DNA of 64,000 nt from Squalus acanthias (Eukaryota), in contig CM059431.1 in assembly GCA_030390025.1 (NCBI GenBank), positions 153,204,001-153,268,000 on the forward strand, written 5' to 3'. This document shows positions 18,593-50,600 of this stretch, piece after piece. Under the pieces are notes generated by a model. The model was not told where the DNA came from. It did no database searches and saw only the letters and a program-made list of their open reading frames with translations. The position numbers and the translations under genes were made by a program. Each line of letters starts with the position of its first letter. Position 1 is the first letter of the stretch.

Positions 18593-18611
18593 CAACAGTT
18601 TTATTTGAAAT

Positions 18612-18646
18612 TACGAGCTTTCAGAGCTCTGCTCCTTCGTCAGGTA
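18612..18646 (-). ncRNA. Minimal type I hammerhead ribozyme motif
   Basis: tac-CTGACGA-a-ggagc-aga-gctct-GAAA-gc-TC-gta. Confidence 0.65.
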
Positions 18647-20601
18647 CAGTGAGGGAATACAAATCGATTACAAAGTATATATAGACAGAGAACAATGTGT
18701 CTGCAGAGATACAATCCATCAGGGAGGCATTACATCAAAGACACAGCAGAGTACAGCTAAGACAATGAGGTGGGTCACAGGGGGTCCAACGTGTCAAATG
18801 CTGCAGTCTGCAGTTAAGCTTTAACTTTTATTTAAAAACCGGAAATCACACCTGTGAACCAGACAACGATCTCGAGTCAGGTTCTGTAGTGTGACATGAA
18901 ACCGAGATCCCGGTTGAGGCCGTCCTCATGGGCGCAGAAATTGGCTATCAGTTTCTGCTCAATGATTTTGCGTTGTCGTGTGTCTCGAAGGCCGCCTTGG
19001 AGAACGCTACCCCGCAGATCCGAGGCTCAATGTCCTTGACTGCTGAAGTGTTCCCCGCATGGAAGGTAACAATCCTGCCTGGTGATTGTTGCGCGGTGTC
19101 CGTTCATACGTTTTCTCAGTGACTGCATGGTCTCGCCGATGTACCATGCCACGGTGCATTCTTTCCTGCAACGTATGAGGTAGACAACGTTGGCCGAGTC
19201 ACATGAGTATGTACCATGTACCTGTTGGGTACTGTCCTCACGTGTGTTGATGGTATCTGTGTTGATGATCTGGCATGTCTTGCAGAGGTTGCTGGGGCAG
19301 GGTTGTGTGGTGTCGAGGTCGCTGTTCTCCTGACAGCTGGGTAATTTGCTTATCTAACATTTCTTGTGGTGACACTACTCTAATGTTACTGCTGGTAATC
19401 CTACTCTAACATTAATGATGGTGACACTACTGTAACATTACTGGTGGTGATTCTACTGGTGATGTATATATTCTAAAATTACTGGAGGTAACCCTACTCT
19501 AGCATTAATGGTGGTGAACCTACACTAACATTACTTGCAGTATCCCTACTCTAACATTACAGGTGGTGACCCTACTCTAACATTTCTGGTGATGAACCTA
19601 TTCCAACATTACTGGATTTGACCCTACTCTAACATTTCTGTTCGTAATGCTTCTCTAACATTACTGGTAGTGATACTATTCTTACCTTACTGGTGGTGAC
19701 CCTACTCTAACATTACTGGTGGTGACCCAACTCTAACTTTGCTGGTGATGATCCTACTCTAACATTAATGGTGGTGACCCTAATTAAACATTACTGGTGG
19801 TGAACCTATCTAACATTACTGATGTTGAAAATACTCTAACATTAATGGTGGTGACCCTACTCTAACATTACTGGTGGTGATCCTACACTAACATTACTGG
19901 TGGTCACCCTAGTCTAACAGTACTGAATGTGACCCTGCTCTAACATTACTGTTGGTGGCTCTACTCTAATATTGCTGCTGGTGACTCTACTCTAACATTA
20001 CTGGTGGGGAATATAACTGACATGACTGGTAGTGAGCCTACACTAACATTACTTGTGGTGAATCTAATCTAACATCACTGCTGGTGAATCAAATCTACCA
20101 TTGCTGCTGGTGACGCTACTCTAAAAATTTTTGTGGCAAACATTCTCTAACATTATTGGTGGTGCCGCTACTGTAACATTACCGGGGGTGACCAAAATCT
20201 AACATTACTTGTGTTGACACTACTCTAACATTACAAGTGTTTACACTACTCTAATATTACTATAAGTGATCCTACTCTAACATTACTGGTGGTGACTCTA
20301 TCATAATATTAATGCTGGTGACCCTACTCTAGCATTACTGGTGATAAACCTACTATAACATTACTGGTGGTGACTCTACTCTAACATAACTGGTGGTGAC
20401 TCTACCCTAGCATTAATGCTGGTGAAGCTACTCTAACATTACTTGTGTTTGATCTACTCTGACATTACTGGTGGTCACCCTTCTCGAACTTAACTGCTGG
20501 TGACCTTACTCTAACATTAATGTGTTGACCCGACTCTAATATTACTGGTGTTTAACCTAATTTATCATGACTAGTGGCGAACGTTCTCTAACATTACTGG
20601 T

Positions 20602-21065
20602 GTGAAGGGGCTTGATCGGGTGAACGCGGTGAGGATGTTCCCAATGATGGGTGAAACTAGAACTAGGGGACATAATCTTAGAATAAGGGGCTGCTCTTTA
20701 AAAATTGAAATGAGGAGAAACTTTTTCACTCAGAGGGTAGTGGGTCTGTGGAATTTGCTACCCCAGGAAGCTGTGGAAGCTACTTCATTAAATAAATTTA
20801 AAACAGAAATAGACCGTTTCCTAGAAGTAAAGGGAATTAGGGGTTACGGGGAGCGGGCTGGAAATTGGACATGAGCTTGAGTTCGGGTCGGTCAAGGCCC
20901 TGTGGGTGGCGGAGCGGGCCCAGGGGCCGAGTGGCCTGGTCCTGCTCCTACTTCTTGTTTTCTTTAGAGTTGAGGTTGGATCACATCAGCCATGATCTCA
21001 TTGAATGGCGGAGCAGGCTCGAAGGGCCGATTGGTCTACTCCTGCTCTTATTTCTTATGTTTCTT
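20602..21065 (+). mobile_element. CR1 3' end with doubled 3' terminal module
   Basis: MKGLDRV...RRNFFTQRVV...GIRGYGERAGNW; TTCTTATG tail; flanked by ATTACTGGTG / ATTACTGCTG. Confidence 0.88.
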
Positions 21066-24000
21066 ATTACTGCTGGTGACTCTACTCTAACATTACTTGT
21101 GATGACCCTACTCTAACATTAATTGTGGTGACCCTACACTAACACTACTGCTGGTGATCCTACTCTAACTTTAATGATGGTGAGCCTATTCTAACCTTTC
21201 TGTTGATTACTCTGCTTTTACATTACTGTTGGTTACTCTGCTGTACCAGTACTGGTGGTTACCATTCTCTAAATATACTGGTGCTAACCTACTTTAACAT
21301 TAAATGGTGGTGCACTACTCTAACATTACTGGTGGTGACCCGACTCTAACATTACTGATGGCGACACTACTCCAACATTACTGGTGGTGACTCTAATCTA
21401 ACATTAATGGTAGTGAGCCTATTCTAGCCTTACTGTTGATGACTCTGCTTTAACATTACTGGTGGTTACTCTGCTCTGCCTTACTGGTTGTTAACATTCT
21501 CTAACTATACTGGTGCTCAACCTACTCTAACATTATACGTGGTAACTCTAGTCTAACATTACTGAGGTTTCGTTACTCTAACATCACTGATTATGACTCT
21601 ACTCTAACATCACTGTATGCGACCGAACTCTAAATAAACTGCTGGTGACCCTACTCCAGCCTTACTCTTACCAATACTGGTGAGGACTCTACACTAACAT
21701 CACCGGTGTTGACTCTACTCCCTCATTACTGGTGGTGAAATTAGTCTAACATTACTGATGTTGTATCTACTCTAACATTACTGGTGATGACTGAACTCTA
21801 ATATTACTGGGAGTGACACAACTATAACATTGCTGGTCGTGAATCTACTGCAACGTGACTTATAATGACCCTTCTCTAACATTAATGGTGGTGATACTAT
21901 CCTAACATTACTATTGGTGACCCCACTCTATCATTAAATGTTCTGCCTCTATTCTTACATTACTGGTGTTGACTCCACTCTAATATTAGTAGTCGTGACG
22001 ATTCACCAATATTGCTGGTTGTTACTCTGCTCTAACATCATAACTACTGGTGACCCGATTCTAACATTACTGAAGGTGACCCTAGTCTAACATTAATGGT
22101 GTTGACCACACCCTAAAATAACTGTTTGTGACTCTACTCTAGCATGACTTGTGATCACCATACTCTAACATTAATGCTGGTGACTCGACTTGAACATTAC
22201 TGGTGACGACCACTCTCAAAAGGTTAATGGTTGTGAACTTAATTTATAATTATTGGAGATGGCACTAATCTAACAAATCTGCTGGTGAGCCTACTCTAAC
22301 ATTACTTGTGAGGAGACTACTCTACTATTACTGGTGATGAACCTACTCTAACCTTACTGGTGGTGACCCTACTCTAACATTACTGGTGTTGCCCTACTAT
22401 AACATTAATAATTGTGACTGTTGTCAAGCATTCATGATAGTGACTCTGCACTAAGATTGTTGTTTCTGACTGTACTCTAACATTCCTGTAGTTGATTCCA
22501 TTCTGACATTACTGATGGTGGCCACACTCTAGGATTATTTGTGATGCCCATACTATATCTTTACTGGTGGTGACTCCATTCTATCATTACTGATGATGAA
22601 CCTGCTATAACATTACAGTTGGTCCCCAAACTATATCTTTACTGTTGGTGACCTTAATCAAATTTACTGGTTGTCAATCTACAATGGCATTACTTGAGAT
22701 GACCCTGCTCTTACTTTACTGTGGGTGACTCGACTCCAAAATTACTCGTGTTGATCCTACTATAATTTAAATGCGGGTGACCATACTCTAACTTTACTGA
22801 TGCTGCCCCTACATGAATATCACTGGTGGTGACTCGACTCTAACATTACTGGTGATGATCCTACACTAACTTTACTGGTGATGATCCTACTCTAACATTA
22901 CTGGTGTTGACTCTACTCTAACATTACTGGTGTTGACTCTACTCTAACATTACTGGAGTTGACTCTACTCTAACATTACTGGTGGTGATCCTACTGTAAC
23001 ATTACTGGTGGTGTATCTAATTGAACATTACTGGTAGTGACGCTACTCTAACATTATTGCTGGTGCCACTGTTCTAACATTACTGATGGTGACCCTACTC
23101 TAACATTACTGGTGGCGACCCGACTTAACATTACTGGTAGTGACCCTACTCTAACATTACCATTACTGGTGGTGACTCTACTCTAACATTACTGGTGGTG
23201 ACCCAACTATAACATTACTGGTGGTGAACCTATTGTAACATTAATGGTGGTGAGCCTATTATAACGTTACTGTTGATGACTCTGCTTTACATGAATTGTG
23301 GTTACTCTGCTCTGCCATTACTGTTGGTTACCATTCTCTAACTCTACTGGTGCTCAACCTACTCAAACATTATAGTTGGTGACTCTACTCTAACATTACT
23401 GAGTTGACATTATTCTAACATTAATGATTGTGACTCTCCTCTAAAATTACTGTATGTGACCGCACACTAAAATAACTGATGGGGACCCTACTCTAACATT
23501 ACTTTTACCAATACTAGTGTTGACTTTAAACTAAAATGACCGGTGTTGACTCAACATCCTCATTACTGGTGGTGAAAATATACTAACATTACTGGTGTTG
23601 ACTCTAATCTAACATGGCTGGTGGTGACCCTACTTGAACATCACTAGTTGTGACTCTAATCTAACCGTACTGTTGGTGACCCTTTTCTGAGATTAAGTGT
23701 GGTGCCTGTACTATATCATTAATATTTGTGACTCTTCAGTAACATTACTGACTGTGACCCTACGCTAACATTACTGATGATGACTGAACTCTAATATTAT
23801 TGGTGGAGACACCAATATAACATTACTGGTCGAGAATCTAGTGAAACATGAATTATAATGACAGTACTCGAACATTACTGATGGTGACGCTACCTTAACA
23901 TTACTATTGGTGACCCCAAGCTATCATTACATGTTGTGACTCTACTCTTACATTACTGGTGTTGAACCCACTTTAAAATTACTGATGGTGACCATTCACT

Positions 24001-25800
24001 AATATTTCTGGTTGAACTCTACTTTAACATTACTGCTTGTGACCCGATTCTAACGCTACGGATGGTGATCCTAGTCTAACATTATTGGTGGTGACTCGAC
24101 TTGAACATTACTGGTAAAGAACACTCTCTAAAGTTAATGGTTCTGAAACTAATGTATATTTATTGGAGATGACACTAGTCTAACAAATCTGCTGGTGAGC
24201 CTACTCTAACGTTACTAGGGAGGAGACTTCTCCACCATTACTGGTGATGAACCTACTCTAACCTTACTGCTGGTGACCCTACTCTAACATTTCTGGTGTT
24301 GCCCCTACTATAACATTAATGATTGTGACTGTTCTCCAGCATTAATGATTGTGACTCTGCACTAGGATTGCTGTTTCTGACTCCATTCTAACATGCCTGG
24401 AGCTGATTCCACTTTAACAGTACAGAGGTGGCCACACTCTAAGATTATTGGTGATGCCCATACATTAACATTACTGGTGGTGACTCCACTCTAACATTAC
24501 AGGTGATGAACCTGCTATACCATTACTGTTGGTCAACAAACTGTTGGTGACCTTAATCTAATTTACTGGTTGTGAATCTACAATGGCATTACTTGAGATG
24601 ACCCTACTCTAACCTTACTGGTGGTGACTCTAATGTAAAATTACTCGTGTTGATCCTACTATAATTTAAATGTGGGTGACCTTAGTCTAACATTACTGGT
24701 GCTGTGTCTACATGAATATTACTGGTGGTGACTCGACTCTAACATTACTGGTTTTGACTCTACTCTAACTTTACTAGTGATGATCCCACTCTAACATTAC
24801 TGGTGGTGACCCTATTTTAACATTACTGATGGTGATCCTACTCTATGATTACTGGTGGTGACTCTAGTCTAACATTACTGGTGGTGTATCTAATCGAAAA
24901 TTACAGGAAGTGACTCTACTCTAACATTATTGGTGGCGACTCTACTGTAACATTACTGGTGGTGATCCTACTCTAACATCACTGGTGGTGAATCTACTCT
25001 AACAATAATGGTGGTCGGCCTATTCAAACTTTACTGTTGATGATTCTGTTTTAACATTATTTGTGGTTACTCTGCTCTGCCATTTCTGTTGGTTACCATT
25101 TTCTAACTATCCTGGTGCTCATCCTACTCTAACATTATAGTTGGTGACTCTACTCTAACATTATTGAGGTGACATTACTCTAACATTAATGATTGTGACT
25201 CTACTCTAAAATTACTGTATGTGACTGCACACTAAAATAACTGATGGTGACCCTACTCCAACAATACTTTTACCAATTTTGGTGGTGAATATAAACTAAA
25301 ATTACCCGTGTTGACTCTACTCTGACATTACTAGTGATGACTGAACTCTAATATTACTGGGGGTGACACCACTATAACATTACTGGACGTGAATCTACAG
25401 TAACGTGACTTATAATGACCCTAATCTAACATTACTGATGGTGATTGTACCCTAACATTATTATTGGTGACCCCACGCAAGGATTACATGTTGTGACACT
25501 AATCTTACATTACTGATGTTGACTCCACACTATTATTACTTGTGGTGACCGTTCACTAATATTTCTGATTGTGACTCTACTGCAACATTACAGCTGTTGA
25601 TCCGATTCTAACATCACTGATGGTGACCCTAGTCTAACATTACTGGTGGTGACTCTACTGGAACATTACTGGTGACGACCAAACTCTAAAGTTAATGGTT
25701 GTGACCCTAATCTTTAATTATTGGAGATTACACTAATCTAACAATTATGCTGGTGAGCCTACTCTAACATTACTAGTGAGGAGACTACTCTACCATTACC

Positions 25801-26407
25801 GGGGATGAGGGGATGGACATATGAGGAGAGGTTGGGTAGATTGGGACTCTACTCATTGGAGTTCAGAAGAATGAGAGGCGATCTTATTGAAACATATAAC
25901 ATTGTGAAGGGGTTAGATCGGGTGGATGCGGGGAGGATGTTCCCGATGATGGGTGAAACTAGAACTAGGGGGCATAGTCTTAGAATAAGGGGCTGCTCTT
26001 TCAAAACTGAGATGAGAAGGAACTACTTCACTCAGAGGGTGGTAGGTCCATGGAATATGCTGCCCCAAAATGCTGTAGAAGCTACATCATTACATAAATT
26101 TAAAACAGAAATAGACAGTTTCCTAGAAGTGAAGGGAATTAAGGGTTACGGGGAGCGGGCAGGAATTTGGCCATGAGTATAGGTTCGGATCGGTCATGGC
26201 CCTGTGTGTAGCGTAGCGGGCCCAGGGGCCGTGTAGCCTGATCCTGCTCTATTTCGAGTGTCCAATTCTGTTAGGTTCAGGAGATGGTTCTGTGATAGTA
26301 GATTGGCGGTTAGCATCAGATCAGCCATGATCTTATTGAATGGCGGAGCAGTCTCGAGGTGCCAATTGGCCTACTCCTGCTCCTATGTCTTATGTTCTTA
26401 TGTTCGT
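25801..26407 (+). mobile_element. CR1 3' end with doubled 3' terminal module
   Basis: YEERLGRLGLYSLEFRRMRGDLIETY...; TTCTTATG tail. Confidence 0.88.
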
Positions 26408-27015
26408 ATTACTGGTGATGAACCTACTCTAACCTTACTGGTGGTGACCCTACTCTAAAATGACTGGCTTTGCCCCTGCTATAAAATTAATGATTGCGTC
26501 TGTACTCTAGCATTATGTTTGTGACACTGCAGTACGATTGTTGTTTCTGACTGTTCTCTAACATTCCTGGAGTTGATTCCACTCTAACATTACTGGTGTT
26601 GGCCACACTCTAAGATTATTGTTGATGCCCATTCTATAATATAACCGGTGGTGACTCCACTTTAACGTTACTGTTAATGAATCTGCAATAACATTATTGT
26701 TGGTGACCAAACTATATCATTACTGTTGCTGAACTTAATCTAATTTACTGGTTGTGAATCTGCAATGGCATTACTTGAGATGACCCTAATCTAACCTTAC
26801 TGGTGGTGACTCTAATGTAAAATTACTCGTGTTGATCCTACTATAATTTTAATGTGGCTGACCGTAATCTAACATTACTGTCGGTGTGTCTACATGAACA
26901 TTACTGGTGGTGACTGGACTCTAACATTACTGATGATGACCCTACTCTAACATTAATGGCCGTGTCCCTAATCTAACATTAGTCGTGTTGACCCTACTCC
27001 ACCATCAATAGTGGT

Positions 27016-27229
27016 CATGATGCGGAGATGCCGGTGTTGGACTGGGTTGGACAAAAATGAGAAGTCGCACAACACCAGGTTATAGTCCAAAAGTTTTATT
27101 TGAAATTACGAGCTTTCGGAGCTCTGCTCCTTCGTCAGGTATAGGTACAGACGAAGGAGCAGAGCTCCGAAAGCTCGTAATTTCAAATAAAACTGTTGGA
27201 CTATAACCTGGTGTTGTGCGACTTCTCAT
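27016..27229. mobile_element. Short palindromic Penelope-like insertion
   Basis: Same terminus as 17621; 80-bp inverted arms 27057-27136 and 27150-27229 with one mismatch; flanking direct repeat CAATAGTGGT. Confidence 0.85.
27107..27141 (-). ncRNA. Minimal type I hammerhead ribozyme motif
   Basis: tac-CTGACGA-a-ggagc-aga-gctcc-GAAA-gc-TC-gta. Confidence 0.72.
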
Positions 27230-28884
27230 CAATAGTGGTGACCTTATCCTAACATTTCTGGTGTTGACCTTACTCTAACATTACTGTTGGTGAGTCTACT
27301 CTGACATTACTGTTGGTGACTCCACTCTAACATTACTGGTGCTGACCTTACTCTAACATTACTGGTGTTGACCCTACTCTAACGTTACTGGTGTTGAGTC
27401 TACTCTAACATTACTGGTGGTGAACTTACTCTAACATTACTGGTGTTCATTCTACTCTAACATTACTGGTGGTGACCCTACTCTAACGTTACTGGTGGTG
27501 AGTCTACTCTAACATAACAAGTGGTGACCCTACTCTAACATTACTGGTGTTGACCCTACTCTAACATTACTGGTGGTGACCCTGCTCTAACATTATTGTG
27601 GTGACTCTACTCAAACATTACTGGTGTTGACCCTATTCTAACATTACTGGTGGTGACCCTACTCTAACATTATTGTGGTGACTCTACTCAAACATTACTG
27701 GTGTTGACCCTACTCTAACATAACAAGTGGTGACCCTACTCTAACATAACAAGTGGTGACCCTACTCTAATATTACTGGTGGTGACCATACTCTAACATT
27801 ACTGGTGGTGAAACTATTCTAACATTAGTTGTGGTGACTCTACTCCAACATTACAGTTGGTGAACCTACTCTAACATGACTTGTGGTGATCCTACTCTAA
27901 CAGCACTGGTATTGACCGACTCTAATATTAGTTTTGATGACCTTACTCGAACATTAATGATGTTGACCTTACTCTAACATTACTGATGGTGACACTACTT
28001 CAACAGTGCTGGTGGTGACCGTACTCAAACATTAATGGTGTTGACTCTACTCTAACATTACTGGTGGTGACTCTACTCCAACATTACTGGTGGTGACCCG
28101 ACTCTAACATTACTGGTGGTGACTCTATTCCAACATTACTGGTGGTGACCCGACTCTAACATTACTGTTGGTGACTCTACTCCAACATTACTGATGGTGA
28201 ACCTGCGCCAACATTACTGGTGGTGACTCTACTCCCACATTGTTGTTTGTGAACCTGCGCCAACATTACTGGTGGTGACCCTACTTCAACAGTGCTGGTG
28301 GTGACCGGACTCAAACATTTCTGATCATGACTCATCATTAACACTACTGAGGCTTTAGCCTAATCTAACGTTACTGGTAGTCACCCGACTGCAACATTAC
28401 TGTTTGGAACAAAACATAACAAGTTCTGATCAATACTCGGACCTAATATTATTAGAGTTGATCCTACTATAAAATTGCTGGTGATGACTCTACTCGAACA
28501 ATACTGGTGGTGATCGTACTCTGACATCACCGGTGGTGAACTTACTCTGACATTACTGGCCTTTATTCCTACTCTAGCATTATTGTTCCTGACACTAATC
28601 TGACACTGTTCTTGCTTACACTACCCTAAAATTAATGATGTTAATTGTATTCTAACATCACTGGTGGTGCCCAATTTTTACATCACCGGTGGAGATTCAA
28701 CTCTAAAATTATTGATTGTGGGACCCATCTAACATAACATGTGGTGACTCCACTCTAAAATTAACGGTGTTGAACCTACTCTAAATTACTTTTGATGAGC
28801 CTACTCTATGATTATTGATGATGACTCCACAATAACAATAATGGCGAGGACAAGTCACTGATATTACTGCCGGTGACCTCTCGT

Positions 28885-29870: not shown

Positions 29871-29877
29871 TACCTGC

Positions 29878-31800
29878 AGTAATGTTAGAATAGGTCATCA
29901 CCAGTAATGTTCGTGTCGTGTCACTATCAGAAAAGTTAGACAAGAGCCACCAACAGTAATGTTAGAGTAGAATTACCAACGGTGCTGTTAGAGTAGGATT
30001 ATCACGGTTAATTCTAGAATAATGTCACCACCAGTAATTTAGAGTAGGATCACACCAGTAATGTTAGAGTAGAGTCACCACCAGTAATGTTAGAGAAGAG
30101 TCGCCTCCAGCAATGCTAAAGTCGAGTCACAACCAATAATATTAGACGAGGGTCTCTACCAGTTATATTCGAGTACAGTCGCCTCCAGTAATGTTAGAGT
30201 AGTGTCATCCCCAGTATTGTTAGTGTAGAGTCTGCACCAGCAACGTTCGAGTAGGGTCAAGAGCAATAAGGTTGGAGTAGAGACCCAATCATTAATGTTA
30301 GACAAGTGTCATCATAAGGAATATTAGTGTCGATTCAGCACCAGTAATGTTAGAATGGGGTCGACACCAGGACTGCTGGACTAGGATTACCACTAGTAAT
30401 GTTCGTGTAGATTCAGCACCAGCAATAACAGAGTAGAATCACCACCAGCAATGTTCGAGTAGGTTCAACATCAGTAATGTTAGAGTAGGGTCTCCACCAG
30501 TAATGTTAAACTATGTTCATCACCAGTAATATTAGAGTGGGGTCAGGACCAGTAATTATATTGTAGAGCCACAGGCCAGTAAAGTTAGAGAAGTGTCATC
30601 ATCAGTAATGTAAGAGTGGGATCTCCAGCAGTAATGTGATAGTAGGGTCACCACCAGTTTTGTCAATGCAGGATCACTACCAGTAATGTTAGAATAGGGT
30701 CACCACCAGTAATGTTAGAATAGGTTCACCACCAGTAATGTTTGAGTACAGTCACCACCAGTAACGATAGATTAGATTCAGCAGAGGTAATGTTAGAATA
30801 GGTTCACCACCAGTAATGTTAGAGTAGGCTAAACTCCAGTAACGTGAGACTAACCAACAGTAATGCTCGAGTGCGGTCACAACCAATAATGTTAGGGTAT
30901 TGTCACAATCAGTAATCTTGGACTAGTGTCAATACCAGCAATGTTATTGTACAGTCACCGCAATTAACGTTAGAATAGGGTCAAAAGCACATATATTAGA
31001 GTAGGGTCAATACCAGCAATGTTAGAGTAGAGTCACCGTCAGTAATAATTGATTAGAGTCACCATCAGCAATGTTAGATTCGCGTCAGTACCAGTAATGT
31101 TAGAATAGGGTCACCACCAAAAATTTTAGAGTAGAGTCCCCAGCAGCAATGTTAGAGTAGAGGCACCACCAGTAATGTAAGAGTGCGGTCACCACAAGTA
31201 ATGTTAGAGTGCGGTCACCAGCAGTAATGTTACTGTAGAGTCACCACCAGTAATGCTGGAGTAGAGGCACCACCAGTAATGTTCGGTTAAAGTCCCCACC
31301 AGTAATGTTAGAATAGATTCACTACCAGTAATGTTAGAGTGCGGTCACCAGCAGTAATGTTAGAGTAGAGTCACCACCAGTAATGTTAGAATAGCGTCAC
31401 TTCCAGTAATGTTAGAGGAGGTTATTCACAATTAATGTTAGTGTAGGGTCTCCATCAATAATCTTCGGTTCAGTCATGACCAATAATGTTAGAGTAGGTT
31501 CACCACCAGTAATTGTCGAGTTGATTCATCACCAGTAATGTTAGATTAGGGTCATCTCCAGTAATCTTACTGTAGGTTCCCACCAGTAATAGTGGAGTAG
31601 AGTCATCACAATTAATGATAGATGATGGCTACTACCAGTAATATTAGTGTAGGATCACCAGCATAATATTAGAGTAGAATCATCACCATTAATGATAGAT
31701 GATGGCCACTACCAGTAATATTAGTGTAGGATCACCACCAGTAATATTAGAGAAGGGTGACGGCCAGTAATGTTAGGGCAGGATCGTCAACAGTAACGTT
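29878..31800 (-). repeat. 26-bp minisatellite array, inverted orientation
   Basis: CCAGTAATGTTAGAGTAGGGTCACCA units. Confidence 0.95.
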
Positions 31801-32099
31801 AAAGCGTTACTTATGGAATGGATGAGAGAATATTTCACCAAATTATGTGAGGCCCTTAGAAGCTAACACAGGGACTTGGAGAGATGTTCCCTTCAGGCTT
31901 CACATGGCGGGTGCAGAGCGCATTCCCTCTGGAATTAACTCCCTTTCATTGTTTTTAATGGACGGAGTTTCATGGACTCAGATGTACAATTTCCCCATTG
32001 GGCGCACTGAAGCGGAAAATCGCCCCTTGTTTGTTAAGTGGCTGTAACTAAGTTCAATTATTGTGTAACCTCACTTTCTCACCAGGGCACGGATTGTTC

Positions 32100-32182: not shown

Positions 32183-34742
32183 ATGGCACGGCCAATAATT
32201 CTACAGATAAAGGACATATACTATCATTTTCTCGCAGTCTTTGGTATTCTCGGTAAGTCAATGCATCCTGTTGTTTAATAGTTGTTAACGAACTCACTGT
32301 TAATGATTATGTTACAGATTCCGTGAAGATCATTTATCGACCGGGATAATTTGGTGAATATCAGCGGGAATCCGATCAGTTTACCCGGCCGGTTAGGCGC
32401 TATTCTGGCCGGCAGATCTTGGGCACGGGGCACTCAAACTCCCTCTCTATACTGAGGGAGGGCGAAGCTGATTCCACGGCCCCTCCAACAGTATATAGTC
32501 CATTAAGGAATGTGTTGCTTAGTGTCCATAGCATTTATTTCAGTTGTCCCGTGGTTCCCTGTCTATTTTATGGTGATAATTGCTCGGACTGCAGCTACCT
32601 CCAACCAACAGCTGAATGTTTTATTGAATCCATATATTTCCAGTAATTGCTGCGAAATTATATTGAACTGCTGTCTGAAGTATGGTGGAAGGGAGTCGGA
32701 ATTTGAGTCCCTCTATATTGAATATTCAATGTTTCATTCCTTTTAAATCAATTCTTTAAGATATATATAAATGACCTGGATATTGGAATACAGTGTAGAA
32801 TTTCTAAATTTGCCGATGACACCAACCTTGGTGGTGTGGCAATCAATAGCTGCAACAGGACATAGAAAGGCTAGCAGAATGGGCAGACAAGTGGCAGATG
32901 GAATTTAATACAGAGAAGTGTGAGGTGATGCATTTTGGCAGAAGGAACAGGCAATATACACTCAGTGGCACAGTTTTAAAGATTGTGCAGGGACAGATGG
33001 ACCTGGGAGTTAATGTGCATAGGTCCCTGATGGTGGCGGGACATATTGAGAGAGTGGTTAACAAAGCCTATAGGATCTTAGGTTTCATAAATAGAGGTAT
33101 TGAGTACAACAGTAGAGAAGTTATGCTGAACCTTTATAAAACGATAGTTAGGCCACAACTGGAGTATTGCGTCCAGTTCTGATCACCACACTTTAGGAAG
33201 GATGTGAAGGCCCTTGAGAGGGTGCAGAGGAGATTTCCCAGAATGTTTCCGGGGATGGGGGTTCTTGGCTACAAGGACAGGTTGAAAAAGCTGGATTTTG
33301 TTTAATTAGAGCAAAGGAGGTTGAGCGGTGATTTGATTATGGCGGGTTTGGATAGGCTAAACGGGGAAAGGCTGTTCCCAGTAGTTGATGGTAAAAAGAC
33401 TAAGGGACACAAATTTAAGGTTTTGGGTAAGAGATACAGGGGGGTGGTGAAGAAAAACTTTTTTACGCAGTGAGTGGTGAGGACCTGGAATTCACTGCCG
33501 ACGGAAGTGGTGGAAGCGGAGACACTCAATGTTTTCAAGGGCTCACTGGATAGGCACTTGAGGGAAATAATCTTGTAGGGCTACGGGGATAGCGGGGGGC
33601 GGATGAGACTGACTGGAGTGCTCCACAGAGAGCCGGAACGGACTCGATGGGCCGAATGCCCTCCCTCTCTGCCGTAATGTCTGTATGGCTCTTTGACTCC
33701 TCAACGCTCGCCTATATGGCAAAAAATCAATGTAGGTAACGCTAAGTAGGCACACATCTGAGCATTCCCCATAATAAGCTGTGATGTTTATCCGGGTGAC
33801 CCTGTTAATAAACTCTTCTCCCTCTTCCTTACAGCGAACCTAGTAACAATCCTGATTCTCTCCAGAGGAAATTGCGGCCTTTCCAAATGTATCTCGATCT
33901 ACATGTTGGTCATGGCGACAGCAGATCTACTGGTCATCATCTTCCATATACTGGTGTTTCAGATTTTCTGTTACCACTTTCCGCATTCATTCCTGTACTA
34001 CACTGCCGTGTGTAAGTCCATTCATTACTTCAATACCGTCACCCTGGATATGTCGGTGTGGTTTACAGTCTTGTTTACTTTTGACCGATTTGTAACTATA
34101 TGTTGTCAGAAGTTTAAAACAAAGTATTGCACAGTGAGAACTGCGGCAACTGTTTTAACAACTGTCACTGTGCTGGTCTGTTTAGAGAATATCCCCTTTG
34201 CTTTCTCCTATCAATCTCAACGAATCATTAACAATGTTTCCTGGGGATGCCGCCCCAATGAAGCCTTTTATTCATCGCCTGCAGGGATAGCCTATTTCCG
34301 CATTCAAAGTATTTTAGTTCCATGGTTTGCTGTTGCTTTGATATTATTGTTGAATTGTTTGACAGTCAGACGAATTGTAGTCAGCAGTAGGGCCCGCAGG
34401 GGACTCCGGGGTCACTGCAGTGAGAATCAGAGCGATCCAGAGATGGAGAGCAGGAGGAAATCCATCATTTTACTCTTCACTGTATCGGGCAGTTTTATAC
34501 TGTTGTGGTTGACATCTGTCGTGAGTAACTTGAAGAACAGCCTGGCCGTTTACTACAAAGGTGAATATGAAACCCCTGCATACATCCTGTCTGAAAGCGG
34601 ATATATGCTCATGTATTTGAGTTCCTGTACAAACACCTGCATTTATGCAGCGACACAAACCAAATTCAGGCAAGATTTGGTGAAGATGGTGAAATCTCCC
34701 TGGACATTGATTCTGATATTGGTTAATAAAATGAAGAATTAA
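32183..34742 (+). CDS. GPR139-like class A GPCR, copy 2, intact, 325 aa (exon 1 32183-32252, exon 2 33835-34742)
   Basis: MARPIILQIKDIYYHFLAVFGIL-A-NLVTILIL; GT-AG phase-1 intron; seven hydrophobic segments; ATADLLV, TFDRF, ECL2 WGC, SSCTNTCIY, QTKFR. Confidence 0.92.
32755..33695 (+). mobile_element. CR1 fragment within the GPCR copy 2 intron
   Basis: KFADDT, MEFNTEKCEVMHFG, VRPQLEYCVQF; absent from the paralogous introns. Confidence 0.88.
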
Positions 34743-38105: not shown

Positions 38106-38107
38106 TC

Positions 38108-40830: not shown

Positions 40831-41687
40831 CTCGTTTTAGTTATTTAATTAGGAATGGCTTGTATCGGATGCCTCCATCTGCCTGATCTTGGGTTATCGC
40901 TGTGTGTGCTGAAGTGTGGTGTTGCTCGTGAATACGATACCAGCATGCGATGTGCATGATGAAGATGCCCTGAAGAATGGGTCCAAGACATGGTCAGTCA
41001 CGCTGAAGTCAACACTACAAGAAATGGTTAATGTGGCTCTGGATAAAGTAATGTGTAAAGCAAATGGGTAGAGATCTGCAGAAGAGAATAGATCGAGATA
41101 GATATATGATGCTGATGAACTTTAGTTTTTGTGTTGGCCTTAAGTAATCTACCGCCAACAGTCGGGTATTGTAAGGAAAGAGTTAATTAGACTGTCCTAA
41201 AGTTTGCTAATGTTATACTGTATTGGTTTATCTTTCTATAGCGTTAATGTATAATATTTTGCGTTTGCCTGTTAAGCAGGGATGTACAAGTGTACTTAAA
41301 GTAACAGTGGACTGATGTGCCAGGGCCGTTCATGCAGCAATGCTCAGTCACAGGAGGAAGCAATAAGAGATTTATACAACACATGTCATTGCAAACTGAT
41401 TCATACATTTCAGAGAACTTTAATCATTTGCTACAAGGTGGGAAGATAGTTAGTTCCAGAACGGAAACATCGGGGCATGCATCATCATTTTAATTGGTAC
41501 GAATTATACAGAAATAAAAGTAGATTTATAATTAATGGTTTCACTTGGTAGAATTGAAATGCTGTGGTCAAGAGTGAAACTATTGATAAGATAATGACTC
41601 GAATGGAATTACGCTTGTAAGCCCACCAGAAAAAGAGATTGTTTCGTAAGGAAAACTATCCTTATTGATCAACGATAAGTCGAGGAA

Positions 41688-42527
41688 GCTGATGGGGTGC
41701 GAAACAACTAGTGCCCGGGCGCGCCGCTTTTTTTGCGCCACTCACGAAATTGACCAGACATTTTGCGGCGCTAAACACTACCACCACGATCTCCTGCGCC
41801 CATAGATCGTGACGTCAGTCGATCGTGCAAGGCCCCGGTAGTGTCCCGGACCGGAGATTGAATGGTGCCCCCTGCCTTACCTCCTGCCGCTAGAAGTGAC
41901 ATGTTGAGGGGAGCGTTTTGCAGTCTGGAAGGGACTGGGGAGCGCTATTTACAGGCGATCGCTTCCTGCCTTATTATTATCTGCGACATTTTTGCACCAC
42001 GCATTCTGCGAGAGAGGGAGAGACTTCTGGAGAGATTCAACGCTGTGTGAACGAGTTTTGGGTCCTGAGCAGCAGTTTGCAGGCTGATTTTGATTTGACC
42101 TTCCTTGCATCGATTTAGAAGAGATTATGTGGGCTGCACTCTGAGCTCTTTCCCTGTGTATCCTCATTGTTCTTTCCAGCAGATTTGATGTACAGCTCTC
42201 TCCAGGGCGAGATGCAAGGCTGCAATGAGCAGGGTGTGGATGGAGAGCAAGATCGACACTCCCCTTTACGAACTGCCCAGCCCTAGTGTGTCTGTGTTCC
42301 ATTGCTGACTGACATCACATGAGCTTCGCCAGCGCTCTGAGGTGGCGACTCGCTCCCCGGCGTTAGCACCTTAAGAGATGTGTGTAGCGTTTGATTCAGC
42401 TGTCCAATCACCTCCAGGAACGATAGAAGTCATGTCTGCAGTCGAAGGTGATAATTAGCGCCAGGCGCTAAACTTTGCACCCGGCCGATAATTGCGCCCC
42501 AATAGGGGCGATACCGAATTTCTCCCC
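41688..42527. mobile_element. Harbinger-derived MITE, copy C, left TIR missing
   Basis: Colinear with copy A; right end GAATTTCTCCCC. Confidence 0.8.
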
Positions 42528-42528
42528 C

Positions 42529-44689: not shown

Positions 44690-45320
44690 CAGCCTGACGT
44701 CACACAGAGTGCAGACTGATGTAACACAGGCTGCAGTCAGAGTCACGCAGACTGCGGACAGAGTAAAAAAGACTGCGGACAGAGTAACAAAGACTGCAGA
44801 CAGAGTCTAACAGACGGCAGCCTGAAGTCACACAGATTGCAGAGTTACACAGACTGGAGACAGAGTCACACATGCAGACTGACGTCACATAAAATGCAGA
44901 CAGTGTGACACAGACTGCAGAAAATGTCACACAGACTGCAGACAGAGTCATACAGACTGCAGACAGGGTCACACAGACTGCAGACTTAAATCACACAGAC
45001 GGCAGAATTACGTCACACTGACTGCAGACAGAGTAACACAGACTGCAGTAAACGTCACACAGACTGCAGACGGTCGTCACACTGACTGCAGACAGACGTC
45101 ACACAGAATGTAGACTGACGTCACACAGGCGGTAGACAGACTCGCACAGATTGTAGATTGACGTCACACAGACTGCAGACAGTCGCACAGACTGCAGACA
45201 ACTTCACGTAGACTGCAAACTGACGTTACACAGACTGCAGAAAGCGTCACACAGACTGCAGACAGAGTCACACAGACTGCAAACCGACGTCACACAGAAC
45301 GCAGACAGATTCACACAGAC
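44690..45320. repeat. Degenerate 21-23 bp tandem repeat (CACACAGACTGCAGACAGAGT)
   Basis: Repeated CACACAGACTGCAGAC core. Confidence 0.88.
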
Positions 45321-45412
45321 TTGGCTTTATCAGGGCAGCTGTGGGCACGGAATGAAGCGGCTGCAGTTCCCACCAGAGCCACTCAGTGTCGCTATTTCCG
45401 TCGCCCATCAGA

Positions 45413-45485
45413 GCCCCGATAGCTCAGTCGGTAGAGCATCAGACTTTTATTCTGAGTGTCCAGGCTTCAAGTCCCTGTTCGAGCG
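45413..45485 (+). pseudogene. tRNA-Lys(TTT), probable pseudogene
   Basis: GCCCCGATAGCTCAGTCGGTAGAGCATCAGACTTTTATTCTGAGTGTCCAGGCTTCAAGTCCCTGTTCGAGCG; substitutions in the acceptor stem and B box. Confidence 0.82.
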
Positions 45486-45825
45486 CTGCTTTCTATCAAT
45501 GGAAACACCATTTGATTTAGACTTCTAAGCAACGACTTTGTTTATAACCTATCAGTAAAGTTGGTTTATATTTCAAGAAAAATGAAAAATATTCTTGTAT
45601 TATATTGAGGCTATAGGAAAGATCAGCGTGAATTGACAGTTTTTTTTATGGTGCTGAGGCCTATGCAGTACATCATAAACATTTATCAGAATTTCCTTGC
45701 TTTGTACTCTATTCCTCTGTTAATAAAGCCAAGGTTCCCATTTGTTTTTCAACTACGTTCTCAACTTGTCCTGCCACCGTCAAAGATTTGTGGACATAAA
45801 CCCCCGGCGGTGAGTTTAGGCCTTC

Positions 45826-46990
45826 GATAAGGTACCCCATAATAGACTGATGCACAAGGTCAGAGAATGCGGAATCAGGGGACTAGTAGCAGAATGGATT
45901 GCTGGCTTGCTTCTGAAAAAAAGCAGAGTGTAGGATTAAAGTGTAGCTATTCACAGTGGCAGAAGTTGAGTAGAGGTATTCCACAAGGATCAGTGCTGGG
46001 ACCACTGCAGTGCACAATTTACAGTAACGATTTAGACTTAGGAATCAAAAACAGAATTTCTAAATTTGCGGATGACACCAAATTACGGGGGCGGGGGCGG
46101 GTGGGGGGATAGGCAATACTGAGGAGGACTGCAACAAGTTACAGGAGGACATGAATAAACTTGCAGAATGGGCATATAATTGGAAAATGAAGTTCAACAA
46201 TGATAAATGTGAGGTATTACATTTTGGTAGGAAGAATAGGGAGGTCACTTATCACTCGGAGTGTTTGCGTCTAGGTGGGGTAGAGAGACAAAGGATCTAG
46301 GAGTACAAATACACAAATCTCTCAAAGTTGCGACACAGGTTAGAAAGGCCATAAAAAGCATAACAAGCATTATGGTTTATTTCTAGAGAGATATAATCGA
46401 AAAGTAGGGAAGTTATGCTAAACCTGTATCGAACCTTGGTTCGACCACACTTAGAGTGCTGCGTACAGTTCTGGTCGCAATATTTTAAAAAGCATTGAAT
46501 TGAGAGGCACTGGAGAGGGTGCAGAAAATATTTACAAGGATGATACTAGAAATGTGAGAGTATACATATCAGGAAAGGACGAACTGGCTGGGTCTCTTTT
46601 CTCTTGAAAAAAGTAGGCTAAATGGTGACCTAATAGAGGTCTCTAAAATTATGAAAAAAGTTGATAGAGTGGATACAGTGAGAATATTTCCACTTATGAG
46701 GAAGAGAATAACTAGAGGCCATTAATAAAAGCAAGTCACCAAGAATACAATCGGAAATTCAGAAGAAACTTCTTTACCCAAGGATTGGTGTGAATGTGGA
46801 ACTCGCTACTACAGGGAGTATTTGAAGCGAATAGGATAGATGCTTTTAAGGGGAGGCTAGTCAATGAGGGATAAAGCAAATGGAGGGTTATGCTGCTAGA
46901 TTTAGATGAGGAAAGACGGGAGAAAGTTCGTGTGTAGCATAAACGCCGGCATGGACAGGTTGGCCGAATCGCCTGTTTCTGTTCTGTATA
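45826..46990 (+). mobile_element. Degraded CR1 ORF2 3' part
   Basis: GIPQGSVLGP, SKFADDTKL. Confidence 0.8.
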
Positions 46991-47430
46991 GAGTCATTGA
47001 GTCATAACGGCACAGAAGGAGGGCATTCGGCCCATCGAGGCCGTGCCGGCTCTCTGTAGAGCAATTCAGTCAGTCCCATTCTCCCGCTGTATCCCCGTAT
47101 CCCTGCAGATTTATTTCCCTCAAGTGCCTATCCAGTCTCCCCTTGGAAACAATGAGTGTGTCTGCTTCCACCACTTCCGTCGTACAGTGAGATCCAGGCC
47201 CTCACCACTCGCTGCGTAAAACAGTTTTTCCTCACACCCCGTTGTATCTCTTTCCCAAAACCTTAAATCTGTGTAGAACCACAGGAAAATAGGAGCAGGA
47301 GTAGGACATTCGGCTCTTCGAGCCTGCTCCGCCATTCAATATGATCATGGCTCATCCTCTATCTCAGTACCATATTCCCGCTCTATCCCCATACCCCTTG
47401 ATGTCTTTTGCTTCTAGGAATCTACGTATC
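46991..47430 (-). mobile_element. Two nested CR1 3'-end fragments
   Basis: Reverse complements of the CR1 3' UTR types seen at 33.6 kb and 9.5 kb. Confidence 0.65.
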
Positions 47431-47439
47431 AAAAGGTAA

Positions 47440-47552
47440 TGTCAGAAGTGGGTTTCGAAACATCGTCTCCTCGAAAGGGACCAGAATTCACCAACCTTTG
47501 GTAAGGATTAACATGTTGTATGAGTCTGGCGCCTTAGACCACTCAGCCTGAC
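47440..47552 (-). pseudogene. Intron-containing tRNA-Leu(CAA)-derived pseudogene (anticodon now CAT)
   Basis: GTCAGG-CTGAGTGGTCTAAGGCGCCAGACTCAT, about 30 nt of intron, TTCTGGTC...TTCGAAACCCACTTCTGACA, then TTTT. Confidence 0.75.
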
Positions 47553-47758
47553 AAATATGCAACTGTGTCCCCTTGCCCTTGTAACACCAACTATTGGGAA
47601 CAACCTTTCCCCGTCTACCCTATCCAAAGTGCGAGAAATATTTCCTGACACCTGTTGATTTTCACAAGAACCATCGGTTTATGTCCCAAAAGAAGGCGGC
47701 AATTCTCAAACGGAACACGGACTGTAATTGAGCTTGAATTAGGGCAGGAAGATATAGT

Positions 47759-49574
47759 TTAATTCTTCATTTAATTAACCAATATCAAAATCAATGTCCA
47801 AGGAGATTTCACCACCTTCTTCAGCTCTTCATTGAATTCGGTTCAGGGTCGCTGCATAAATACACGTGTTTCTACAGGAACTCAAATACATGAGCATATA
47901 TCCGCTTTCAGCCAGAATGTATTCAGGGGCTTCATAATCATCCTTGTAGTAAACGGCCAGGCTGTCCGTGAAAATACTCACGGTAGCTGTCATCCGCGAC
48001 AGTAAAAAGCTGCCCAATATAGTGAAGAGTAAAATGATGGATTTTCTCCGTATCTCCTCTCTGGATCGCTCTGATTCTCACTGCTGTGGCCCCGGAGTCC
48101 CCTGCGGCCCCTACTGCTTGCTACAATGCGTCTGACTGTCAAACAATTAAACATTCATATCAAAGCAAAAGTCAGCAATGGAACTAAAATACTTCGCAGT
48201 TGGAAGAACGATACACATCCAGACGATGAAAAAAAGGCTTCATTGGAGCGGCAACCCCAGGAAACATTGTTAATGATTCGTTGAGATTCATGGGAGAAAC
48301 GAAAGGGGATATCCTCTATACAGAACAGCACAGTGACAGTTATTAAACCTGCTGCGGCAGTTCACACTGTGCAATACTTTGTTTTAAACTTCTGACAACA
48401 TATCGCTAGAAATCGGTCAAAATTGAACGAGACTGTGAACCACACCGACATATAGCATGTGACAGTATTGATGTAATGAATGGACTTACACACGGCAGTG
48501 TAGGACAGGACTGAATGCGGAACGTGGTAACAGAAACTCAGAAACACCAGTAACTGGGAGATGATGACGTAAGATCTGCTGCCGCCATGGCCACCATGTA
48601 GACCGAGATACATTTGGAAAGGCCGCAATTTTCGCTGGAGAGAATCAGGATTGTCAGTAGGTTCGCTGTAAGGAAGAGGGAGAAGAGGCCAGTAACGGGG
48701 ATACTCAGATAAATCTCACAGGATATTGTGGGGGAATGCTCAGATGTGTCCCTACTTAGCGTTACGTACCCTCATTTGTTTTACTATATAGGCGAGCGTT
48801 GAGGAGATTTGATTTAGAAGAAATGAAACATTGAATATTCAATATAGAGGGACTCAAATTCCGACTCCCTTCCACCGTACTTCAGACAGCGGTTATATAT
48901 AATTTCGCTGCAATTGCTGGAAAGATATGGCTGCAATAAAATATTCAGCTGAGAAACATATATTTCAATACATGTCGAAAACTCTGCGCTTTTTCTATTT
49001 ACGGTCGCCCTGGGGGGAGCTGCTCGGTAACAGAGCGGGAGCTGGTGGAGCCGCGAAGGTTCTTTACAGCCGAGCGGAGGGGAGCAACTCCCTGAGCGGC
49101 AATTGTTGCTCATAATATCTTTCAAAGTCCCCTGTTGGGGGGAGGTTCCTGCAATCCGAGCAATTACCAACTGATAATAAACAGGGAACAAATGTACAAA
49201 TGAGATTGTAACCATGCACACTAGGCAGCACATTCTGTAGTGATCCATATAGTTTTGGAGGGGCCGCGGAATCAGCCTCGCCCTCCCTCAGTATAGAGAG
49301 GAAAGTTGAGCGCCCGGTGCCCACGATCTACCTGACAGAATAGCGCTTCACCGGCCGCGCGGACTGGTAGGATTCCCACAGATATTTATCAAATTATCCC
49401 GGTGGCTAAATGACTCTGCAACGGGGACCTTCACGGAATCTGTTACATAATCATTAGCAGTGAGACACTCAACAACTATTAAACAACAGGATACATTGAC
49501 TTGCTGAGAAAACCAAAGGCTGCAAGAACATGATAGTATATGTCCTTTATCTGTAGAATTATTGGCCGTGCCAT
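47759..49574 (-). pseudogene. GPR139-like GPCR copy 3, pseudogene (exon 1 49574-49505, exon 2 48665-47759)
   Basis: Closest to copy 2. Frameshift near 48570, TGA at 48362-48364, further indels near 48058 and 47845, GC at the donor site. Confidence 0.9.
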
Positions 49575-50470
49575 TTTTAGAAGATTGTGTGAATAGGCCA
49601 TCATTTATATTAGAGTAGGGTCGCCATCGTTTATATAAGAGTAGGGTCACCACCAGTAATTTTAGAGTAGGGATATTTCCTGTAAATTTAGACTAGGTTT
49701 ACCACGAGTAATGTCAGAGACGGGTCACCACCAGTAATGTTACAGTAGTGTCACCACCAGTAATGTTTGAGTCGGTTCACCACCAGTAATGTTAGAGTAC
49801 GGTAACCGCCACTAATGTTAGAATAGGGTCACCACCATTAATGTTAGTGTAGGTTCACCACCAGTAATGTTAGAATAGGGTCAGCACCAGTAATGTTATT
49901 GTAGGGTCACTGCCAGTAATGATAGATTAGGGTCACCACCAGTAATGTTAGATTAGGTCAACACCAGTAATGTTATGAAGGTTCACCACCACTAATTTCA
50001 CAGTACATTCACCACCAGTATTGCTCGAGTAGGTTCGCCCCCAGTAATGTGAGCCTTGGGACATCAACACTAATGTTAGTGCAGCCTCAGTGCCAGTACC
50101 GTTCGAATAGTGTCACCACAAGTAATGTTATACTCAGTTCACCACCAATAAGGTTAGAGTAGATGTAACTCCAGTAATGTTCTTATCGGATCATCATCAG
50201 CAATGTTAGAGTAGACTCACCATCATTAATGTTAGAGGAGGGTCACCAGCAGTAATGTAAAAGTAGGTTCACCGCGAGTAATGTTAGTAGGATTACCATC
50301 AGTAATGTTAGAATAGAGTCACCACCAGTAATGTTAGTTTAGAATCACCACGAGTAATGTTAGAATAGGGTCACCACCAGTAATGATAGAGTAGGCTCAC
50401 CACCAAGAATGATAGGGTCGGGTCACCACTATTAATGTTAGACTAGGTCCACCACCATGAATGTTAGGAT

Positions 50471-50600
50471 AGCAAAATACTGCGGATGCTGGAAATCCGA
50501 AATAACAACAGAAAACGCTGGAAAAACACAGCAGGCCAGGCAGCATCCGTTGAGAGAGAAAGAGAGTTAACGTTTCAGGTCGATGACCTTTCATCAGAAC
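50471..50600 (-). mobile_element. Penelope-like element terminus, second family
   Basis: About 130 bp of non-array sequence ending in a hammerhead motif; family assignment rests on that motif. Confidence 0.65.
50566..50600 (-). ncRNA. Minimal type I hammerhead ribozyme motif
   Basis: gtt-CTGATGA-a-aggtc-atc-gacct-GAAA-cg-TT-aac. Confidence 0.75.

What the first reader, a model, noticed from the sequence alone, without database searches (positions are those of the whole stretch)
18612..50600. Three 35-nt minimal hammerhead ribozymes from two unrelated families with covarying stems
Seen on the minus strand at 18612-18646, 27107-27141 and 50566-50600: 3-bp stem I (uac/gua vs guu/aac), CUGANGA, an extra A, 5-bp stem II with a 3-nt loop (ggagc/gcucc vs agguc/gaccu), GAAA, a palindromic tetramer (AGCU vs ACGU), then the UH site. 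Architecture and length are identical while the stem sequences differ. Known: Penelope-like elements carry minimal type I hammerheads thought to cleave as dimers, and an extra A after A9 is tolerated in a viroid hammerhead. Inference: self-cleaving motifs inside the promoter-proximal arrays could cut array transcripts.
Basis: partly seen in the sequence, partly recalled or inferred. Interest (0 to 1): 0.72.

Follow-up and report, generated by a model that had tools for sequence, protein, structure and literature searches.

The report
Penelope retrotransposon end-pieces carrying hammerheads
The three self-cutting-RNA motifs are real, but they are end-pieces of two very common Penelope-type jumping genes that landed separately in a repeat array, so they are likely ordinary debris rather than a device for cutting the array's RNA.

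Summary
Observation confirmed: three minimal type I hammerheads on the minus strand (0.01 per shuffle). Each lies in the terminal repeat (pLTR) of an endonuclease-bearing Penelope-like element (PLE). Family A (copies 1, 2) and family B (copy 3) have 25,898 and 26,414 exact core matches in this 3.7-Gb genome, about 0.9 expected per 64 kb. Full-length RT + GIY-YIG elements of both exist; their proteins are 32% identical, so the families are related, not unrelated. The copies are separate insertions into a 26-bp minisatellite. Copy 1 has a weakened stem II, copy 2 is locked in a long hairpin, and only 4 of 20 paralogous array stretches carry such a copy, in mixed orientation. Co-option to cut array transcripts is not supported. 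Side result from 200 sampled copies: 5' junctions pile up 0-10 nt before the core (42 of 200), none at the cut site, and all 41 duplication-flanked inverted pairs join one short-tail and one long-tail arm. The scan has noted these PLE stubs before on other DNA (111 findings, at least 17 genomes). Known kind; low interest.

The parts
18612..18646 (-). Minimal type I hammerhead, family A, copy 1; G.U instead of G-C at the base of stem II
18877..19350 (-). 3' remnant of PLE family A ORF (Cys linker and GIY-YIG-type endonuclease region, frameshifted); 5' end of the insertion near 19350
   Evidence: (86% identity over 107 aa to the L138 protein)
18593..18876 (-). pLTR of copy 1: TATA-like 18675-18683, initiator-like 18647-18653, hammerhead, AATAAA 18600-18605
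   Evidence: the promoter role is inferred
17696..18592 (.). Harbinger-type miniature element nested in the tail of copy 1 (12-bp terminal inverted repeats, 3-bp duplication); its ends match the Harbinger element at about 56945-61266
17621..17695 (-). Rest of the copy 1 tail: short end site near 17662, long end site near 17621
27107..27141 (-). Minimal type I hammerhead, family A, copy 2; canonical core
27016..27144 (-). Direct arm of the palindromic family A insertion: begins 6-7 nt before the core, ends at the long-tail site
27150..27229 (+). Inverted arm of the same insertion: lacks the first bases of the core, ends at the short-tail site
27003..27015 (.). 13-bp target duplication of copy 2 (partner at 27227-27239)
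50566..50600 (-). Minimal type I hammerhead, family B, copy 3; A-U closes stem II
50468..50600 (-). Solo family B stub: begins 3 nt before the core, ends at the long-tail site; no TATA, no ORF
50454..50467 (.). 14-bp target duplication of copy 3, one mismatch (partner at 50599-50612)
15343..28824 (+). 26-bp minisatellite array, interrupted by copies 1 and 2 and other repeats
49610..52683 (-). 26-bp minisatellite array interrupted by copy 3

Best explanation
The three hammerheads are the pLTR ribozymes of two abundant, related Penelope-like retrotransposon families, left as three separate and likely inert insertions in a minisatellite. Shown: full-length elements of both families read hammerhead, tail, one ORF (RT + GIY-YIG), pLTR, hammerhead. 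Genomic copies end at one of two fixed 3' sites 35-40 nt apart. Their 5' junctions pile up just before the core. Inverted pairs join one short-tail and one long-tail arm between 10-18 bp duplications. Inferred: the element's mRNA starts at an initiator 4-7 nt before CUGANGA, so the hammerhead is the very 5' end of the RNA. The protein nicks both target strands and primes cDNA inside the RNA at the two tail sites (shown in vitro for an anole PLE, PMC11167929). Priming at the 5' tail runs off the RNA's 5' end after about 100-135 nt and gives stubs and palindromes (copies 2 and 3). Priming at the 3' tail gives ORF-containing 5'-truncated copies (copy 1). Uncleaved RNA is the template. Cleavage, if it happens, would need a dimer or the element's protein and would serve the element, not the host array.
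For: Copy 1 lies directly 3' of an ORF remnant 86% identical to a full-length family A protein. Tandem family B units of 3,199 bp with 1,004-aa open frames, and a family A unit hammerhead-918 aa-hammerhead. Pfam RVT_1 in both proteins, GIY-YIG in B; DKG, YIDD, C-x4-C-x2-C linker, YIG and CCHH residues in both. Copy numbers. 5' junctions at -10..0: 22 of 100 (A) and 20 of 100 (B), against 24 and 19 over the 190 nt upstream, binomial p < 1e-14 each; none of 200 at the cut site. Two 3' end classes in both families; 41 of 43 candidate head-to-head pairs have a duplication of 10 bp or more, and all 41 are short + long; random flank pairs reach 10 bp in 4 of 300. Target duplications for copies 2 and 3. 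Paralogous arrays mostly lack these insertions.
Against: The Pfam scores are weak: GIY-YIG in B and RVT_1 in B are below the curated cut-off, GIY-YIG was not found in A, and the partial A proteins gave no hit. No clear target duplication was found for copy 1. The transcription start is not shown: only contig-level runs were available, and they cannot show RNA ends. In D. virilis Penelope the promoter is internal and TATA-less, with an intron between start and hammerhead (PMC2377424, PMC4209133), so the start-at-the-hammerhead step is not general. The junction sample is the first 100 exact anchor matches per family on one contig end, which favours young copies. No cleavage assay was run.
Confidence: 0.9

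Rival explanations
1. The insertions were co-opted by the host and cut transcripts of the minisatellite arrays upstream of the receptor genes.
For: All three sit in arrays and on one strand. The arrays do lie 5' of 7TM genes in fixed orientation in 18 of 18 stretches with a gene. Copies 2 and 3 keep a canonical core.
Against: 16 of 20 other array stretches have no such copy in or at the array. In-array versus outside rate is not different (4 in 81 kb versus 3 in 119 kb, p = 0.45). Orientation to the array is 3 same, 4 opposite. Copy 2 folds into a hairpin of about -165 kcal/mol on either strand and diverges from its duplicate like the neighbouring LINE (0.9% versus 0.8%). Minimal hammerheads did not cleave as monomers in PMC4209133.
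Confidence: 0.04
2. PLE origin as above, but the 5' pile-up arises because reverse transcription stalls or switches template at the folded hammerhead, and inverted copies form by fold-back or self-priming (proposed in PMC3846280), not by run-off at the RNA's 5' end and priming from both target strands.
For: Several inverted pairs have symmetric junctions at short natural palindromes. The two arms are nearly identical and mostly of one subfamily, which fits one molecule copied twice. Junctions also spread into the core (+1 to +20: 13 of 100 in A, 14 of 100 in B).
Against: The peak lies at an initiator-like motif about 30 nt after a TATA-like motif in both families, outside stem II. Fold-back alone does not explain why the second arm always ends at the other fixed tail site (41 of 41). 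Many pairs are strongly asymmetric.
Confidence: 0.3
3. The short copies are an independent non-autonomous family (retrozyme or SINE-like) that replicates through cleaved, circular RNA.
For: The core-to-tail segment is far deeper than the ORF in contigs of related organisms (weak, and the RNA status is a guess). Animal retrozymes derive from PLE pLTRs (bioRxiv 10.64898/2026.07.22.740005).
Against: The three copies are not tandem units. No 5' junction is at the cut site in 200 arms. Stub sequences match subfamilies of ORF-linked pLTRs, and their 5' ends vary from copy to copy.
Confidence: 0.06

Closest known systems
Minimal type I hammerheads in pLTRs of metazoan Penelope-like elements (Cervera and de la Pena 2014, PMC4209133; read parts 1-2 of 4, supplements not seen)
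   Same: No stem III as a monomer, palindromic 15.1-16.1 tetramer, extra base between 9 and 10.1, short stem I, location in the pLTR, thousands of solo copies from truncated elements.
   Different: About 52,000 exact core matches here, against about 4,000 and 9,000 reported for coelacanth and Xenopus tropicalis (different search methods). Family B has A-U or G.U at 10.1-11.1 where G-C is called highly conserved. Stem I is 3-4 bp.
Canonical C-terminal EN+ PLEs of the Neptune/Nematis type; inverted pLTR plus one-sided 30-40 bp tail (Craig 2021, PMC8557442; Arkhipova 2013, PMC3846280; passages read)
   Same: Single RT + GIY-YIG ORF, C-x2-5-C-x2-C linker, partial tandems, inverted 5'-truncated copy, tail at one end, target duplications, TATA plus TCACT-like initiator in the pLTR.
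   Different: Those passages call the tail optional or often one-sided; here it is 41 of 41 in duplication-flanked inverted pairs. The pile-up of 5' ends at the front of the hammerhead is not in the passages I read.
PAc (Poseidon PLE of Anolis; Frangieh 2024, PMC11167929; main text read, supplements not seen)
   Same: Two internal RT start sites that define the tail, both target strands cut and extended, hammerhead overlapping or next to the ORF start, uncleaved RNA as the main template.
   Different: Different clade by the linker criterion. In family A the long tail ends at the ORF's ATG, not inside the ORF. The strand-to-site pairing was not seen in vitro there; the authors saw no difference in start site between strands.
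Non-LTR retrozymes of animals (bioRxiv 10.64898/2026.07.22.740005; part 1 of 5 and passages read)
   Same: Type I hammerhead derived from a PLE pLTR, non-coding, high copy.
   Different: Defined there as tandem repeats with a hammerhead in consecutive units; the window copies are a solo stub, a palindrome and a truncated ORF-linked copy.

Membership tests
PLE minimal type I hammerhead | Core CUGANGA / GAAA / UH with stem II and short stem I, no monomeric stem III | tested here: met
PLE minimal type I hammerhead | Extra base between 9 and 10.1; palindromic 15.1-16.1 tetramer | tested here: met
PLE minimal type I hammerhead | G10.1-C11.1 pair (highly conserved, not universal) | tested here: inconclusive
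   Met in copy 2 and in most family A motifs; G.U in copy 1; A-U or G.U throughout family B
PLE minimal type I hammerhead | Stem covariation among genomic copies | tested here: met
   Family A outer stem I pair U-A 60, C-G 52, U.G 12, C.A 4. In 21 distinct A variants 99% of cells pair and 2 of 10 pairs change on both sides. These may be only two evolutionary events. Family B shows one-sided changes only.
PLE minimal type I hammerhead | Located in the pLTR of a PLE | tested here: met
PLE minimal type I hammerhead | Self-cleavage as a dimer or with protein help | not testable with these tools
   Needs an assay; folding shows only that the monomer fold is a minority state
EN+ Penelope-like element | Single ORF with RT and C-terminal GIY-YIG endonuclease (CCHH, DKG) | tested here: met
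   (weak Pfam scores)
EN+ Penelope-like element | Tandem or inverted pLTRs, 30-40 bp tail, target duplications | tested here: met
Neptune/Nematis clades | C-x2-5-C-x2-C linker between RT and endonuclease | tested here: met
   criterion from PMC8557442 passages
Neptune clade specifically | RT phylogeny with named references | not tested
   No tree built. Neptune is inferred because the preprint passage reports only Neptune and Poseidon in vertebrates.
Non-LTR retrozyme | Tandem repeat with a hammerhead in at least two consecutive units | tested here: not met
Host-co-opted regulatory ribozyme | Fixed position and orientation in paralogues, conservation above flanks | tested here: not met

The most novel reading that the evidence does not exclude
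In these PLEs the hammerhead is the first 35-40 nt of the capped mRNA, so stem I is short because no RNA lies upstream, and cleavage would decap the RNA and take it out of the cycle: a self-limiting switch, not a maturation step. Every inverted insertion is written by a two-sided reaction in which one target strand is always primed at the short tail site and the other at the long one. The roughly 100,000 genomic stubs would then be a readable record of PLE integration, giving a strict rule (41 of 41) that the existing in vitro system can test directly.
Probability: 0.4. Interest if true: 0.55.

Novelty: new member of a known kind. Interest (0 to 1): 0.2.

Why it matters
As a feature of this locus it matters little: three of some tens of thousands of retroelement ribozyme copies. 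What has value is the by-product. The role of the PLE hammerhead and the origin of inverted pLTRs and tails are open questions (PMC8557442, PMC11167929). Two young, very high-copy families with intact tandem elements give counts (5' ends at the front of the hammerhead, none at the cut site, strict short/long pairing) that make specific predictions for 5'-end mapping and for the existing in vitro system.

Tried and rejected
Rfam scan: no hammerhead hit; the mir-1597 hit at 27101-27185 is below the gathering score and reflects the palindrome of copy 2. An apparent fixed TGGTT 5' end in family B was ascertainment from my query; it vanished in the unbiased sample. A junction peak at -68 was an artefact of one reference with an inverted arm; that reference was removed. 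Splice-acceptor reading of the family B 5' boundary with host exons: not favoured, because a duplication of 10 bp or more abuts the junction in 14 of 22 solo stubs (these lengths include a few element bases). Random pairing of RNAs from different subfamilies through the palindrome: not favoured, because the two arms of a pair are nearly identical. Dimer folding: the hammerhead dimer is pseudoknotted for ViennaRNA and was not the minimum-energy state; uninformative. PDB sequence search with the family B protein: 0 hits. Expression, RNA starts, cut ends and poly(A): only contigs were offered and RNA status is mostly a guess; no conclusion. Lunse et al. 2017 was not held; I saw only its title and the summary in a review (PMC6765202, passages). 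Literature searches that found no paper on these families or on the pairing rule. Subscription papers and Repbase/Dfam were not searched.
Full report
1. Observation. The three motifs are present as described on the minus strand. A minimal type I descriptor finds exactly these three in the window and 0.01 per dinucleotide shuffle (2 of 200 shuffles with one hit). The motifs are far beyond chance in shuffled DNA but not rare in this 3.7-Gb genome. Exact core patterns occur 26,414 (B) and 25,898 times (A), and the downstream anchors 92,044 (A) and 22,884 times (B); reversed-pattern controls gave 0. About 0.9 exact cores are expected per 64 kb and two of the three window copies match exactly (P = 0.23). 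Earlier scan notes call the genome shark-like; I did not test that.

2. What they belong to. Copy 1 lies about 230 nt 3' of a frameshifted ORF remnant (19350-18877) that is 86% identical over 107 aa to the C-terminus of an 889-aa protein from locus L138. L138 reads hammerhead, tail, ORF, pLTR, hammerhead. L133 holds tandem family B units of 3,199 bp with 1,004-aa open frames and a hammerhead at each junction. Pfam finds RVT_1 in both proteins and GIY-YIG in B, with weak scores; the two hits in B are below the cut-off, and the partial A proteins gave nothing. Both proteins have DKG, YIDD, a C-x4-C-x2-C linker and YIG/CCHH residues. They align at 32% identity over 880 aa. By the criteria in PMC8557442 (passages) they are C-terminal EN+ Penelope-like elements of the Neptune/Nematis type; the clade was not tested by a tree. 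The families are therefore related, and the shared architecture is most simply inherited.

3. The three insertions. Copy 1 is a 5'-truncated family A element. Its tail is split by a Harbinger-type miniature element at 17696-18592 with 12-bp inverted ends and a 3-bp duplication. I found no clear target duplication for it. Copy 2 is a 214-bp palindrome (27016-27229) between 13-bp duplications. The direct arm starts 6-7 nt before the core and ends at the long-tail site; the inverted arm lacks the start of the core and ends at the short-tail site. RNA from either strand folds into one long hairpin (-165 and -168 kcal/mol for the 256-nt stretch) that buries the ribozyme. Copy 3 is a solo family B stub (50468-50600) between 14-bp duplications with one mismatch. 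For isolated stretches of about 50 nt, the stem II pairs have probability 0.00, 0.41 and 0.35 for copies 1, 2 and 3.

4. Covariation. In family A the outer stem I pair is U-A in 60, C-G in 52, U.G in 12 and C.A in 4 motifs. In 21 distinct variants (3-4 nt loops; 19 seen at least twice plus the two window copies; longer loops and family B left out because the joint alignment was out of register), 99% of cells pair and 2 of 10 pairs change on both sides. These may be only two events. N7, H17 and loop II vary freely. In the anchor-based sample, which does not require the core, 71 of 81 (A) and 66 of 81 (B) arms that reach the core have a canonical core and a 5-bp stem II. This fits selection on the ribozyme fold during element propagation. 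It says nothing about function at this locus.

5. The array hypothesis. The arrays are indeed 5' of receptor genes: 18 of 20 other array stretches had a 7TM gene and all 18 show the array 1-2 kb upstream in one orientation. But only 4 of the 20 have a hammerhead-bearing insertion in or at the edge of the array. The rate is not different from outside (4 in 81 kb, 3 in 119 kb, p = 0.45). Across these four and the window's three, orientation is 3 same and 4 opposite. In a segmental duplicate, copy 2 has diverged like the LINE beside it (2 of 214 against 5 of 608). Copies 1 and 2 are 15 and 6.6 kb from the nearest receptor start (33762) and antisense to it. In the literature a minimal PLE hammerhead did not cleave as a monomer and cleaved weakly as a dimer (PMC4209133), and the anole one needed protein (PMC11167929). 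The nearest partner with the same palindrome on the same strand is 8.5 kb away. I put co-option at about 4%.

6. How the stubs likely arise. I took the first 100 exact matches per family of an anchor 3' of the cut site on contig C1 and mapped each 5' junction against ORF-linked pLTRs. After removing one artefactual reference, 22 of 100 (A) and 20 of 100 (B) junctions fall in the 11 nt before the core, with modes at -7 and -3 to -5. The 190 nt upstream hold 24 and 19. A further 13 and 14 fall at +1 to +20, and 35 and 42 arms extend beyond -200. None of 200 is at the cut site; one per family is within 2 nt. The peak coincides with an initiator-like motif about 30 nt after a TATA-like motif, as noted for a rotifer PLE (PMC3846280, passages). 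3' ends fall in two classes 35-40 nt apart. Of 43 candidate head-to-head pairs, 41 have a duplication of 10-18 bp, and all 41 join a short-tail and a long-tail arm (one long arm runs about 15 nt further). The two pairs without a duplication were set aside as not one insertion. Random flank pairs reach 10 bp in 4 of 300. The two arms are near-identical. With the in vitro result that a PLE protein cuts and extends both strands and starts reverse transcription at two internal sites defining the tail, using uncleaved RNA (PMC11167929), the simplest model is two-sided priming with run-off at an mRNA 5' end just before the hammerhead. The transcription start and the strand-to-site pairing are inferred, and that paper saw no strand difference in start sites. 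Stalling at the folded ribozyme with fold-back synthesis remains a rival (about 30%). Sequencing runs were contigs only and could not show RNA ends.

7. Known and new. PLE minimal hammerheads, inverted pLTRs, one-sided tails and target duplications are in print (PMC4209133, PMC8557442, PMC3846280, PMC11167929; review passages in PMC6765202). My searches found no paper on these two families, the 5' pile-up or the strict pairing. Subscription papers, repeat libraries, the Lunse 2017 paper and all supplements were not seen and may bear on this. The scan has recorded the same kind of stub many times on other DNA (111 findings in at least 17 genomes), including the junction at the front of the hammerhead. 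My counts were made before I saw those notes, which are not independent support.

8. Verdict. Real motifs, correctly recognised as PLE-type hammerheads; ordinary retroelement debris at this locus. New member of a known kind, interest 0.2. The boldest reading left open (hammerhead as the capped 5' end and self-limiting switch; one tail site per target strand) has probability about 0.4 and would merit 0.55.

Noticed in passing
window 2003-5726, 29877-31801, 49610-52683; L300-L319: The 26-bp minisatellite sits 1-2 kb 5' of 7tm_1 receptor genes in one fixed orientation (18 of 20 stretches had a gene, 18 of 18 fit). The first 100 of 1,216 exact matches all lie on contig C7, 137-146 Mb: a very large receptor cluster with a linked satellite.
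   Followed up: partly
window 1-792 (-), 33762-34739 (+), 47762-48732 (-), 53920-54886 (+): Four paralogous rhodopsin-family receptor genes. 33762-34739 has an open 326-aa frame; two others are broken or shifted, and one runs off the window. A likeness to GPR139 is recalled, not tested.
   Followed up: partly
window 56945-61266, with 11911-12764, 17696-18592, 41682-42528: Harbinger-type DNA transposon with DDE_Tnp_4 and Myb/SANT frames, and three miniature derivatives in the same window.
   Followed up: partly
window 18600-18605, 27095-27100: AATAAA lies 7 nt after the family A cut site, giving a TATA-initiator-hammerhead-poly(A) signal order. An earlier scan note (e1-9394321) calls it a working signal; the contigs here could not test that.
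   Followed up: partly
L133:1403, 4602: In one family B subfamily the first in-frame ATG of the 1,004-aa frame lies inside the catalytic CUGAUGA; other subfamilies have CUGACGA and lack it.
   Followed up: no
L133, L134, L135, L136, L137: Near-identical tandem family B units with intact frames on several contigs suggest recent or current activity.
   Followed up: partly
L205:2934-2971 (-), L223: A family A subfamily has a U4C core change (CCGACGA) together with a compensatory U-A pair in stem II.
   Followed up: no
L002 (C7 150.5 Mb): A segmental duplicate carries the same copy 2 insertion, about 1% diverged.
   Followed up: yes
window 44699-45321, 60254-60523: Further tandem repeats of 21 and 54 bp; tRNA-like sequences at 6712, 7902, 45413 and 56821.
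   Followed up: no
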